Origin: a virus
Lineage: Duplodnaviria > Heunggongvirae > Uroviricota > Caudoviricetes
IMG/VR virus record: IMGVR_UViG_2671180435_000002
DNA: 25,029 bases
Reading direction: 5' to 3' (one strand)
Made by a program: the position numbers. The stretch's first letter is position 1. Each line of letters starts with the position of its first letter. Shown here one piece after another: positions 21,298 through 24,200 of this stretch.

Positions 21298-24200
21298 TCA
21301 TCCTCTCCGGATAAGGCACGGGCGTAATCTGCCAGTGTTTTCTTGTTGGTTGCTGCACCATCCTCTTCCTGCAGGCTCGCCAGCAGTGCACTGAGATCCA
21401 GCTGCCAGCGGGAAATACTGATGCGCAGCGCCGCCAGCGCATAAACGAAGCAGTCGAGCGCCTCATTGCGTCGCTTTTTGCTGTCCCACAGTATTTTTTT
21501 CCTGCCATCCACCCATTTTTCGACCTGCTCTTCAGCAGTCAGCTGCTGCGCTTCGGTCAGATCAAAAATATCCGGGTTATTCGGGAAGTGAACGGCACCG
21601 GGAAGCGGTTCATCCCCTTCCGGCGTCAGTGTGAAGCGGTTATAAATCTGCTCTTTCGCGGTATCCGTACCGATTTCGGTAAGGTAAACCCCGTTTTTGT
21701 TTCGCTTACGAGGCATGCTGGCCACCGGCTTACCGTAGACGGATGCCCCTTTAATGGGGATCACCCGGAACAGCCCATGCTTTTTCGAGCGTTCATACAC
21801 AATGGTCGGGTCAATCCCGCCAATATCCCAGCAGATACGGGATATCGACATTTCTGCACCATTCCGGCGGGTATAGGTTTTATTGATGGCCTCATCCACA
21901 CGCAGCAGCGTCTGTTCATCGTCGTGGCGGCCCATAATAATCTGCCGATCAATCAGCCAGCTTTCCTCACCCGGCCCCCATCCCCATACGCGCATTTCGT
22001 AGCGATCCCGCTGGGAGTCGATACCGGCGGTCAGGTAAGCCACACGGTCAGGAACGGGCGCTGAATAATGCTCTTTCCGCTCTGCCATCACTTCAGCATC
22101 CGGACGTTCGCCAATTTTCGCCTCCCACGTCTCACCGAGCGTGGTGTTTACGAAGGTTTTACGTTTTCCCGTATCCCCTTTCGTTTTCATCCAGTCTTTG
22201 ACAATCTGCACCCAGGTGGTGAACGGGCTGTACGCTGTCCAGATGTGAAAGGTCACACTGTCAGGTGGCTCAATCTCTTCACCGGATGACGAAAACCAGA
22301 GAATGCCATCACGGGTCCAGATCCCGGTCTTTTCGCAGATATAACGGGCATCAGTAAAGTCCAGCTCCTGCTGGCGGATGACGCAGGCATTATGCTCGCA
22401 GAGATAAAACACGCTGGAGGGGTCATCCGGCGTCCATTTGAGGCCAAACGGCGTCTCTTTGTCGCCAAATTTAAGATACTGCTCCTCCCCGCAGTGCGGG
22501 CAGGCAACATGAAAACGCATAAAATGCGGGGATTCACTGGCTGCACGCTCAATCTGGCAGGTGCCTCTCACTTTGGGCGTGGAGCCACGGATGGACTTTG
22601 GCCAGACCGAGCCTTCAATACGTTTGTCGCCAAGGAACGTCGGAGAGCCTTCCTGTTCAATATCCTCATCAAAGGCAGCAAGTTCATCATAACCCGCCAC
22701 ATCCACCGACTTTTCACGGTAGTTTTTTGCCGCTTTACCGCCCAGGCACCAGAAGCCACGACCATTGGAAAAACGCTTCATAGTGAGCGTGTTATCCCGG
22801 TGCTTTTTGCCATACCACGGAGCCAGCGCCAGCAGCGACGGAATATCGCGGATGGTCGGCTCAACGTGGGTTTTCATAAAGTTCTCGGCATCACCATCCG
22901 TCGGCAACCAGATAAGTGTGTTGCGCTGCTTATGCTCTATAAAGTAGGCATAAACACCCAGCAGCATTTTGGAATAACCGACACGGGCAGACTTCACCAC
23001 ATTCACCTCACGGATGTAGTCGCTGCCCATCGCATTCATGATGGCCCGCTGAAAGGGCAGTGTTTCCCAGCGCCCTTCCTGGTATGCGGATTCTTTCGGG
23101 AGATAGTAATTAGCATCCGCCCATTCAACGGCGGTCTGTGGCTCCGGCCTGAACAGTGAGCGAAGCCCGGCGCGGACAAAATGCCGCAGCCTGTTAACCT
23201 GACTGTTCGATATATTCACTCAGCAACCCCGGTATCAGTTCATCCAGCGCGGCTGCTTTGTTCATGGCTTTGATGATATCCCGTTTCAGGAAATCAACAT
23301 GTCGGTTTTCCAGTTCCGGAAAACGCCGCTGCACCGACAGGGGGATCCCGTCGAGAATACTGGCAATTTCACCTGCGATCCGCGACAGCACGAAAGTACA
23401 GAATGCGGTTTCCACCACTTCAGCGGAGTCTCTGGCATTTTTCAGCTCCTGTGCGTCGGCCTGCGCACGCGTAAGTCGATGGCGTTCGTACTCAATAGTC
23501 CCTGGCTGGAGATCTGTCTCGCTGGCCTGCCGCAGTTCTTCAACTTCCCGGCGCAGCTTTTCGTTCTCAATTTCAGCATCCCTTTCGGCATACCATCTTA
23601 TAACGGCGGCAGAGTCATAAAGCACCTCATTACCCTTGCCACCGCCTCGCAGAACGGGCATTCCCTGTTCCTGCCAGTTCTGAATGGTACGGATACTCGC
23701 ACCGAAAATGTCAGCCAGCTGCTTTTTGTTGACTTCCATTGTTCATTCCACGGACAAAAACAGAGAAAGGAAACGACAGAGGCCAAAAAGCCCGTTTTCA
23801 GCACCTGTCGTTTCCTTTCTTTTCAGGGGGTGTTTTAAATAAAAACATTAGGTTACGGCGAAGAAGAACGGAAACGCCTTAAACCGGAAAATTGTCATAA
23901 ATAGCGAAAACCCGCGCGCCTTCCGCCCCGTAACCTGTCGGATCGCCGGAAAGGACCCGCAAAATGATAATAATTATCATCTACATGTCACAACGTGCAT
24001 CTACGCCATCAAACCACGTCAAATAATCAATTATGACGCAGGTATCGTATTAATTGATCTGCATCAACTTAACGTAAAAACAACTTCAGACAATACAAAT
24101 CAGCGACACTGAATACAGGGCAACCTCATGTCAACGAAGAACAGAACCCGCAGAACAACAACCCGCAACATCCGCTTTCCTAACCAAATGATTGAACAAA

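What the first reader, a model, noticed from the sequence alone, without database searches (positions are those of the whole stretch)
23965..23979. Perfect Fur-box-like palindrome between cos and the cassette
TGATAATAATTATCA is an exact 7-1-7 inverted repeat fitting the Fur operator model. It sits about 35 bp from the cosN nick and about 150 bp upstream of the RHH-like gene. It could be an operator giving iron-responsive control of the cassette, a site for another dimeric regulator, or a packaging-related element; lambda keeps a near-identical palindrome here, suggesting selection.
Basis: partly seen in the sequence, partly recalled or inferred. Interest (0 to 1): 0.4.

Follow-up and report, generated by a model that had tools for sequence, protein, structure and literature searches.

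The report
Known Fur box beside lambda cosQ
The palindrome is real and is a strong binding site for the host iron sensor Fur, sitting 6 bp from the packaging-termination signal cosQ of a lambda-like phage. The identical sequence in E. coli K-12 is already published as a top-ranked Fur site, so this is a known element whose role in phage biology is still unclear.

Summary
**Observation: confirmed.** TGATAATAATTATCA at 23965-23979 is a perfect 7-1-7 inverted repeat and the window's only exact match to the Fur motif TGATAATnATTATCA. It lies 6 bp beyond cosQ, 36 bp from the nearer cosN nick, and 148 bp upstream of a DUF3950 gene followed by a DUF1398 gene.

**Already known.**
- The 19-mer around it is identical to the DLP12 "nohB" site of E. 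coli K-12. That site scores 25.3 bits, the third-strongest Fur cluster in that genome.
- The Qin copy ("nohA") was recovered by in vivo Fur selection and shifted by Fur in gel assays.
- A degenerate copy in a CFT073 prophage carries a Fur ChIP-exo peak, and genes on both sides rise in a fur deletion.

**Not supported: iron control of the DUF3950-DUF1398 cassette.**
- No plus-strand promoter-like site lies near the box.
- The best sigma-70-like site faces cos and Nu1, and the box overlaps it.
- In K-12 fur mutants the cassette genes are unchanged or lower, never derepressed.

**Not required for packaging.** The box sits beside cosQ in lambda, 434, phi80, N15 and 21. It is missing from some phage cos sites and from satellite (PICI) cos sites that lambda and phi80 still package.

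**Verdict:** a known Fur operator with an unresolved regulatory output. Low novelty.

The parts
23965..23979 (.). Perfect 7-1-7 inverted repeat TGATAATAATTATCA, the minimal Fur dimer site
   Evidence: It is identical in K-12 DLP12, phage 434 and PhiR49_1.
23963..23981 (.). 19-bp (9-1-9) Fur site AATGATAATAATTATCATC centred on 23972
   Evidence: It is identical to the DLP12 19-mer. That site scored 25.3 bits in the experimentally trained 9-1-9 model of Chen et al. 2007.
23964..23991 (-). Sigma-70-like promoter match pointing toward cos and Nu1. The -35 is GTGACA (23991..23986), the spacer is 16 nt, and the -10 is TATCAT (23969..23964). The Fur box covers the spacer and the -10.
   Evidence: It matches 10 of 12 consensus positions and is the best hit on either strand between cos and the DUF3950 gene. 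This is a consensus match only; no transcription start has been mapped.
23952..23958 (-). cosQ (GGGTCCT on the minus strand), the packaging-termination subsite
   Evidence: Placed by identity with the annotated cosQ of phage 434 and with lambda 48473-48479.
23917..23928 (-). The 12-nt cohesive-end segment of cosN. It reads GGGCGGAAGGCG on the minus strand and differs from lambda's GGGCGGCGACCT at 5 of the 6 positions 7-12.
   Evidence: Alignment A1.
23194..23739 (-). Small terminase subunit (Nu1 / NohA / NohD homologue). cosB lies between it and cosN.
   Evidence: ORF list, annotation of PhiR49_1, and the K-12 nohA and nohD annotations.
24128..24361 (+).
   Evidence: Pfam PF13132, E = 2e-20. 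It is the same length as ynfO and occupies the same position beside the small terminase gene as ynfO does in K-12 Qin.
24404..24829 (+). DUF1398 gene (YdfO/YbcV family) in an AT-rich stretch of 30-35% G+C
   Evidence: Pfam PF07166, E = 3e-43. Composition profile.

Best explanation
The palindrome is a genuine high-affinity operator for the host iron sensor Fur. It is the same element as the published "nohB" (DLP12) and "nohA" (Qin) Fur sites of E. coli K-12.

**Proposed mechanism.** In iron-replete cells an Fe2+-Fur dimer, possibly with overlapping extra dimers, sits on the 19-bp site 6 bp from cosQ. There it covers the spacer and -10 of a leftward sigma-70-like promoter. That promoter would otherwise fire across cosQ, cosN and cosB into the terminase and head genes without the late antiterminator Q. 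The box therefore most likely acts as an iron-sensitive gate on transcription starting in the region between cos and the accessory genes.

**What is shown and what is inferred.**
- Shown for orthologous copies: Fur binding.
- Inferred: the promoter, its direction, and any physiological consequence.
- Not supported in this lineage: direct repression of the rightward DUF3950-DUF1398 cassette.
For: **Motif strength**
- Exact 7-1-7 match and 16 of 19 to the classical box, both far above chance.
- The 19-mer is identical to the DLP12 site. That site scored 25.3 bits, the third-strongest Fur cluster in K-12.
- Chen et al.'s coordinates 579824 and 1634624 map exactly onto the centres of the DLP12 and Qin palindromes.

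**Binding to orthologous copies**
- The Qin copy was picked up by in vivo Fur selection and gel-shifted with 150 nM Fur.
- An FNR ChIP-seq peak grouped by its authors with Fur-bound sites has its summit at 1634625, 1 bp from the Qin palindrome centre.
- In CFT073 a Fur ChIP-exo peak under iron-replete conditions at 1424699-1424711 overlaps the 21-type box at 1424694-1424707, 5 nt from cosQ.

**Expression in CFT073 fur deletion (log2 change)**
- Terminase-side genes rise: +1.34, +1.57 and +2.13.
- The two small genes on the other side rise: +2.33 and +2.95.

**Promoter and persistence**
- The best promoter-like match in the spacer lies on the minus strand and is overlapped by the box. Chen et al. 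also chose nohA as a predicted Fur-controlled promoter.
- The box persists beside cosQ in lambda, 434, phi80, N15, 21 and another lineage, although the sequence beyond it is replaced.
Against: - The MG1655 and W3110 Fur ChIP-exo lists have no peak at either K-12 copy. The two copies are near-identical repeats, which may hamper read mapping.
- In fur deletions, nohD and nohA are unchanged in MG1655. In W3110 nohD is lower and the Qin copy is unchanged. Neither is derepressed.
- The minus-strand -35/-10 arrangement exists only in the lambda/434-type flank. By my inspection of the sequences, phi80 has no -35 at the corresponding place, and the CFT073 scan found no overlapping promoter-like site. 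A conserved promoter therefore cannot explain why the box is retained.
- The CFT073 rise in terminase-side genes could instead reflect more spontaneous prophage induction in a fur mutant. The full expression table for that strain was not available to check.
Confidence: 0.55

Rival explanations
1. One reading: Fur at the box represses the rightward DUF3950-DUF1398 cassette, so these prophage accessory genes switch on under iron limitation.
For: - The box lies upstream of the cassette and divergent from the late genes.
- In the CFT073 prophage, two small genes on the non-terminase side of the equivalent box rise +2.3 and +2.9 log2 in a fur deletion, with Fur bound there.
- In some prophages the box and the cassette are absent together, with the junction right after cosQ.
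Against: - The box ends 148 bp before the start codon, and no plus-strand promoter-like site lies at or near it.
- ynfO, ydfO, ylcI and ybcV are not derepressed in K-12 fur deletions. They are unchanged in MG1655 and lower in W3110: ynfO -5.1, ydfO -2.05, ybcV -3.7 log2.
- I found none of these gene names in the nine-strain Fur pan-regulon table.
- ybcV was among the most down-regulated genes under copper stress, a condition in which iron-uptake genes go up.
- phi80 and N15 keep the box but have no divergent cassette.
- A DUF3950 gene in the CFT073 satellite lies in a 49.5-kb stretch with no Fur box.
Confidence: 0.15
2. Fe2+-Fur bound at the box acts positively on the AT-rich cassette. One way would be by countering H-NS silencing from an upstream position, as described for ftnA, so the cassette would be expressed when iron is plentiful.
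For: - The site is about 150 bp upstream of the start codon rather than over a plus-strand promoter.
- The spacer and cassette are AT-rich at 30-35% G+C.
- ynfO, ydfO and ybcV fall in the W3110 fur deletion.
- ybcV falls under copper stress while iron-uptake genes rise.
- ydfO rises together with sodB after ionic-liquid shock.
Against: - All the expression evidence is indirect, and the W3110 fur mutant shows many unrelated changes, for example appY -4.1 log2.
- MG1655 shows no change, and no ChIP-exo peak is listed in K-12.
- H-NS occupancy was not examined. The ftnA analogy rests on my own knowledge, not on a test made here.
Confidence: 0.1
3. The box is a real Fur-binding sequence with no regulatory output of its own. 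It would be a tolerated or weakly useful bystander that travels with the cosN-cosQ block.
For: - Neither flank responds in MG1655, and no K-12 ChIP-exo peak is listed.
- Chen et al. note other strong Fur clusters, such as oppA and acnA, with no Fur effect on expression.
- Among close relatives the box is no better conserved than the rest of the spacer.
Against: - The box is retained with at most 2 mismatches in at least five different flanking contexts while the sequence just beyond it is unalignable.
- N15 shows a symmetric change of both outermost bases.
- In CFT073 the site is occupied and both flanks respond to fur deletion.
Confidence: 0.12
4. The box is an accessory part of cos. A protein bound there, Fur or a phage factor, would meet the incoming packaging motor just before cosQ and help termination.
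For: - It sits 5-8 bp from cosQ in lambda, 434, phi80, N15 and 21.
- Homology between these phages ends exactly at its distal edge.
- The phi80 record includes it within a feature labelled "cosQ; aka R4 region".
Against: - It lies outside the 7-bp cosQ.
- The spacing to cosQ varies between 5 and 8 bp.
- It is absent from 7 of 119 IMG/VR cos loci, from L156, and from an E. albertii phage with intact terminase genes.
- It is absent from both cos sites of the satellite EcCICFT073, which support transfer by lambda and phi80.
Confidence: 0.06
5. The box is the target of a different dimeric regulator, or acts as an RNA or DNA hairpin such as a weak terminator on the late transcript.
For: It has dyad symmetry. 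On the minus strand a run of T follows the repeat.
Against: - The predicted RNA hairpins are weak: -6.9 and -3.2 kcal/mol, z about -2, with 10 of 200 shuffles folding as well.
- The terminator scan did not call it.
- The sequence is an exact Fur motif, and Fur binding is demonstrated for the orthologue.
Confidence: 0.02

Closest known systems
E. coli K-12 Fur sites "nohB" (DLP12, between nohD and ylcI) and "nohA" (Qin, between nohA and ynfO). Sources: Stojiljkovic et al. 1994 and Vassinova & Kozyrev 2000, as cited in Chen et al. 2007 (PMC2189734).
   Same: - These are orthologous positions in the same arrangement: small terminase gene, cosB, cosN, cosQ, palindrome, DUF3950 gene.
- The DLP12 19-mer is identical to the window's. 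The Qin copy differs at the central base and one flanking base.
   Different: - The K-12 copies sit in decayed cryptic prophages. The window carries full-length terminase genes and a variant cohesive end.
- The literature assigns the sites to nohA and nohB and, in the papers read here, does not describe them as the palindrome beside lambda's cosQ.
Classical Fur-repressed promoters, where the operator overlaps the -10/-35 (for example fhuF, fepA-fes, ryhB)
   Same: - A high-scoring 9-1-9 site overlaps a sigma-70-like -10 and spacer.
- It ranks alongside gpmA, ryhB and sodA in bits.
   Different: - The target genes are not iron-related.
- The promoter is only predicted.
- No derepression is seen in K-12 fur mutants.
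Fur-bound box beside cosQ in the CFT073 lambdoid prophage, which has a phage 21-type cos (Gao et al. 2023, PMC10164565)
   Same: It occupies the same position relative to cosQ and cosN. Fur occupancy in vivo is shown, and the flanking genes respond to fur deletion.
   Different: - The box is degenerate (CGAGAATAATTATCA) and lies 1 bp closer to cosQ.
- The neighbours differ: small ORFs and a TonB-family gene instead of DUF3950 and DUF1398.
Lambda cosQ / R4, the packaging-termination subsite
   Same: It is immediately adjacent, 6 bp away, and is co-conserved with cosQ in several lambda-like phages.
   Different: It lies outside the 7-bp cosQ. It is missing from cos sites that are still packaged.

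Membership tests
Fur box (Fe2+-Fur operator of Enterobacteria) | 7-1-7 inverted repeat TGATAATnATTATCA, the minimal dimer site | tested here: met
   All 14 specified positions match. It is the only perfect match in the window, and about 3e-5 exact matches are expected by chance.
Fur box (Fe2+-Fur operator of Enterobacteria) | Match to the classical 19-bp consensus GATAATGATAATCATTATC | tested here: met
   16 of 19 positions match at 23960-23978, with 0.00 expected in shuffles. No other place in the window reaches 14 of 19.
Fur box (Fe2+-Fur operator of Enterobacteria) | High score in a weight matrix trained on footprinted or gel-shifted sites | tested here: met
The window's 19-mer is identical to the DLP12 site, which scores 25.3 bits in the 24-site 9-1-9 model and ranks third in K-12.
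Fur box (Fe2+-Fur operator of Enterobacteria) | Fur binds the DNA in vitro | not testable with these tools
   The literature covers only the Qin orthologue, which differs at 2 of 19 bases. It was gel-shifted at 150 nM Fur and recovered by in vivo selection.
Fur box (Fe2+-Fur operator of Enterobacteria) | Fur occupies the site in vivo | tested here: inconclusive
   - Positive: a ChIP-exo peak on the 21-type copy in CFT073.
- Positive: an FNR ChIP-seq summit 1 bp from the Qin centre, in a group of Fur-bound sites.
- Negative: the MG1655 and W3110 Fur ChIP-exo lists have no peak at either K-12 copy.
Fur box (Fe2+-Fur operator of Enterobacteria) | The operator overlaps a promoter | tested here: met
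   A consensus match only: minus strand, GTGACA, 16 nt, TATCAT, 10 of 12 positions, with the box over the spacer and -10. No plus-strand equivalent exists and no start site has been mapped.
Fur box (Fe2+-Fur operator of Enterobacteria) | Flanking genes change with iron or fur | tested here: inconclusive
   - K-12: no derepression, and the genes are lower in W3110.
- CFT073: both flanks rise by 1.3-2.9 log2 in a fur deletion.
Lambda cos subsite (cosQ / R4) | Lies within the genetically defined 7-bp cosQ | tested here: not met
   cosQ is 23952-23958 and the palindrome starts at 23965. cosQ is described as a 7-bp site.
Lambda cos subsite (cosQ / R4) | Present in all cos sites used by lambda-type terminases | tested here: not met
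   It is absent in 7 of 119 IMG/VR loci, in L156, in the E. albertii phage L137, and in both EcCICFT073 cos sites.
Lambda cos subsite (cosQ / R4) | Needed for packaging or its termination | not testable with these tools
   Indirect only: cloned satellite cos sites, which lack the box in the genome sequence, support transfer by lambda and phi80.
Regulatory element of a prophage accessory-gene cassette ("moron") | Adjacent to AT-rich accessory genes transcribed opposite to the late operon | tested here: met
   The DUF3950 and DUF1398 genes are on the plus strand at 30-35% G+C, against about 53% in the terminase genes.
Regulatory element of a prophage accessory-gene cassette ("moron") | The operator sits on the cassette's own promoter | tested here: not met
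   No plus-strand sigma-70-like site lies at or near the box. The best plus-strand candidates have poor -35 hexamers.
Regulatory element of a prophage accessory-gene cassette ("moron") | Travels with the cassette across genomes | tested here: inconclusive
   - For: it is lost together with the cassette in one class of prophages.
- Against: it is kept with unrelated neighbours in phi80, N15, 21 and another class.
- Against: a DUF3950 gene in the CFT073 satellite has no Fur box within 49.5 kb.

The most novel reading that the evidence does not exclude
The Fur box may be a conserved accessory module of lambda-type cos in true phages (lambda, 434, phi80, N15, 21) but not in their satellites. It would couple host iron status to events at cos. 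Two forms are possible. It could gate Q-independent transcription across cos into the terminase and head genes of a prophage. Or Fur could act as a bound obstacle that the packaging motor meets just before cosQ.
Probability: 0.12. Interest if true: 0.6.

Novelty: already known. Interest (0 to 1): 0.25.

Why it matters
As a Fur site this adds nothing new. The identical sequence has been in the E. coli Fur literature since the 1990s.

Two modest points do come out of the work.
- The K-12 "nohA" and "nohB" Fur sites are the same element as the palindrome 6 bp from cosQ in lambda. It persists there in lambda, 434, phi80, N15 and 21 even though the neighbouring genes are swapped.
- That persistence poses a testable question that none of the papers read here addresses: why would lambda-like phages keep a top-strength iron-sensor site at the junction between their accessory genes and the start of the late structural operon?

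If Fur really gates transcription across cos, iron limitation in the gut could alter prophage late-gene or accessory-gene expression.

Tried and rejected
- **Conservation within close relatives.** Across 72 haplotypes, only the central base and the outermost bases of the box vary. The rest of the spacer is similarly conserved, so this comparison has no power.
- **Species-level genome scan for more cos contexts.** It returned only 23 loci, many of them apparently lambda control DNA at the contig ends of unrelated organisms. Only one new context came out of it, an E. albertii phage.
- **Cos-adjacent Fur peaks in O157 Sakai prophages.** The two candidate peaks lie inside tape-measure genes and are unrelated to cos.
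- **RNA hairpin or terminator reading.** Rejected as too weak.
- **Papers I could not read.** The two cosQ-defining papers (Cue & Feiss 1993; Wieczorek & Feiss 2001) are not held. Whether the mutagenised interval reached the palindrome is therefore unknown to me. The supplements of Chen 2007, Beauchene 2015 and the copper-stress paper are also not held.
- **Independent Fur weight matrix.** I did not build one, because no whole genome was available offline. I relied on sequence identity to a published scored site.
- **CFT073 gene orientation.** I could not establish the orientation of the old locus tags C_RS07340 and C_RS26755, because the current RefSeq annotation no longer lists them.
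Full report
**What is there**

Window 23965-23979 reads TGATAATAATTATCA, a perfect 7-1-7 inverted repeat. The region is the cos junction of a lambda-like phage, read in reverse orientation.

| Feature | Coordinates | Strand | Basis |
|---|---|---|---|
| Large terminase gene | 21294-23219 | minus | |
| Small terminase gene (Nu1) | 23194-23739 | minus | |
| cosB | between Nu1 and cosN | | homology, |
| Cohesive end (cosN) | 23917-23928 | | |
| cosQ (AGGACCC) | 23952-23958 | | 434 annotation, |
| Palindrome | 23965-23979 | | |
| DUF3950 gene, 77 aa | 24128-24361 | plus | |
| DUF1398 gene | 24404-24829 | plus | |

The palindrome is 36 bp from the nearer nick and 148 bp from the DUF3950 start codon.

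**Is it more than chance?**

Dyad symmetry alone is not remarkable. The window holds three perfect 7-1-7 repeats, and shuffled sequence averages 1.6.

The particular sequence is remarkable.
- It is the only exact match to the Fur motif TGATAATnATTATCA.
- About 3e-5 such matches are expected by chance.
- It matches the classical 19-bp Fur box at 16 of 19 positions, where shuffles give none.

**It is a published Fur site**

Alignment with E. coli K-12 shows the same architecture in two cryptic prophages. In Qin the order is nohA, cos, palindrome, ynfO, ydfO. In DLP12 it is nohD, cos, palindrome, ylcI.

Chen et al. 2007 (PMC2189734) list the following.
- A Fur cluster "nohB" of 25.3 bits at 579824, the third strongest in the genome.
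- A Fur cluster "nohA" of 22.3 bits at 1634624.
- The nohA oligonucleotide was shifted by 150 nM Fur.
- The nohA fragment had earlier been recovered by Vassinova and Kozyrev's in vivo selection for Fur sites.

After converting coordinates (+777 and +1976), both published positions fall exactly on the centres of the DLP12 and Qin palindromes. Their model spans 19 bp in a 9-1-9 layout. The window's 19-mer, AATGATAATAATTATCATC, is identical to the DLP12 one.

**In vivo evidence is mixed**

| Source | Strain or locus | Result |
|---|---|---|
| Myers et al. 2013, FNR ChIP-seq | K-12 Qin | Peak summit at 1634625, grouped by the authors with known Fur-bound sites |
| Gao et al. 2023, Fur ChIP-exo | MG1655, W3110 | No peak at either copy |
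| Gao et al. 2023, Fur ChIP-exo | CFT073 prophage | Iron-replete peak at 1424699-1424711, on the box GTGATAATTATTCTC, 5 nt from cosQ |

The two K-12 copies are near-identical repeats, which may be why ChIP-exo missed them.

In the CFT073 fur deletion, genes on both sides of the site rise.
- Terminase side: +1.34, +1.57 and +2.13 log2.
- The two small genes on the other side: +2.33 and +2.95 log2.

**What does it control here?**

The best sigma-70-like match between cos and the DUF3950 gene lies on the minus strand. It reads GTGACA, 16 nt, TATCAT, matching 10 of 12 positions. Its spacer and -10 are covered by the box, and it points across cos toward Nu1. Nothing comparable exists on the plus strand.

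Expression data for the cassette homologues argue against simple repression.

| Condition | Genes | Change |
|---|---|---|
| MG1655 fur deletion, iron-replete | ybcV, ybcW, nohD, nohA, ydfO | Essentially silent and unchanged |
| W3110 fur deletion | ynfO / ydfO / ybcV | -5.1 / -2.05 / -3.7 log2 |
| Copper stress, iron-uptake genes up | ybcV | Among the most down-regulated genes |
| Ionic-liquid shock | ydfO | Rises together with sodB |

None of this fits Fur repressing the cassette. If anything it hints at a positive or indirect effect. The W3110 mutant shows many unrelated changes, so I treat that only as a rival explanation.

**Comparative picture**

A scan of IMG/VR with the cosN-cosQ block gave 119 loci with enough flanking sequence. 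Of these, 112 carry the box with at most 2 mismatches and 7 do not.

Among close relatives the box is no better conserved than the rest of the spacer. Similarity to lambda alone therefore says little about selection.

Distant comparisons are more informative.

| Phage or class | Box sequence | Sequence beyond the box |
|---|---|---|
| lambda | TGATAATGATTATCA (window orientation) | lambda-type |
| phi80 | TGATAATAATTATCA | unrelated to lambda |
| N15 | CGATAATAGTTATCG (both outermost bases changed symmetrically) | unrelated to lambda |
| 21 and CFT073 prophage | CGAGAATAATTATCA | unrelated to lambda |
| another IMG/VR class | TGATAATGATTGTCA | unrelated to lambda |

All keep the box 5-8 bp from cosQ. 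In phi80 and N15 the neighbouring gene runs toward cos, so there is no divergent cassette to regulate.

Conversely, the box is missing in several cos contexts.
- One class of prophages, where homology ends right after cosQ.
- Locus L156.
- An E. albertii phage with intact terminase genes.

**Packaging role**

Both cos sites of the satellite EcCICFT073 have cosQ and cosN but no box. At cos1 a terminator abuts cosQ. Cloned satellite cos sites support transfer by lambda and phi80. The box lies outside the 7-bp cosQ, and its spacing to cosQ varies. An essential packaging function is therefore unlikely, although a modulatory one is not excluded. I could not read the two papers that define cosQ.

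**Other readings**

The predicted RNA hairpins are weak, and the terminator scan does not call the site.

**Conclusion**

The proposed target, the DUF3950-DUF1398 cassette, is not supported.

My best account is a Fur operator over a leftward promoter-like element at the cos-proximal edge of the accessory-gene region. I put Fur binding at about 0.85 likely. The specific regulatory mechanism is much less certain, which brings overall confidence to 0.55.

The one open question worth asking is why lambda-like phages, but not their satellites, keep a top-strength Fur site next to cosQ.

Noticed in passing
window 23917-23928: The 12-nt cohesive end reads GGGCGGAAGGCG. It differs from lambda's GGGCGGCGACCT at 5 of the 6 positions 7-12, while the left half and the nick-flanking bases are kept. 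It was unique among about 143 cos loci from the first scans. It occurs in 14 further IMG/VR contigs, so it is a real variant lineage.
   Followed up: partly
L126 (lambda NC_001416), about 48109-48303, complement: The reference lambda record annotates nothing between 47944 and the right end. The DUF3950 (YlcI/YnfO-type) reading frame is nevertheless intact there, starting 148 bp beyond the palindrome as in the window.
   Followed up: no
L170 12480-12600 and 13240-13400 (CFT073 satellite EcCICFT073): Both satellite cos sites have cosQ and a lambda-type cohesive end but no Fur box. At cos1 a terminator-like GC hairpin followed by a run of T (my reading of the sequence) ends 2 bp before cosQ. The satellite also carries a YlcI/YnfO-family (DUF3950) gene at L170 5474-5653.
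   Followed up: partly
L005 455-781 (CFT073 prophage) and L129 764-956 (phage 21): The phage 21-type cos region, whose Fur box is occupied by Fur in CFT073, is followed within about 1 kb by a TonB-family or TonB C-terminal-domain gene. This is an iron-transport-related accessory gene next to a Fur site.
   Followed up: no
L036, L061, L084 and other IMG/VR loci; L156: In some prophages, homology to the window ends within 1-10 bp after cosQ and resumes near the end of the DUF1398 gene. The box, spacer and both cassette genes are thus replaced by about 70 bp of other sequence, followed by a bor-like gene.
   Followed up: partly
K-12 Qin site (L004 3594-3608): A published FNR ChIP-seq peak has its summit 1 bp from the palindrome centre. 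The sequence is a poor FNR site, since its TGAT and ATCA elements are spaced 7 bp apart rather than 4. Ten such "FNR" peaks coincide with strong Fur sites.
   Followed up: no
K-12 DLP12 and Qin genes in Gao et al. 2023 supplements: The same prophage genes (ynfO, ydfO, ybcV, ybcW, appY) are strongly lower in the W3110 fur deletion but unchanged in the MG1655 fur deletion. This strain difference is unexplained.
   Followed up: no
window 18222-18236 and 18286-18300: Two perfect GC-rich 7-1-7 inverted repeats, CGGCATCAGATGCCG and CGCAGTGTCACTGCG, lie 64 bp apart inside the 3' part of a 484-aa minus-strand head-gene ORF.
   Followed up: no
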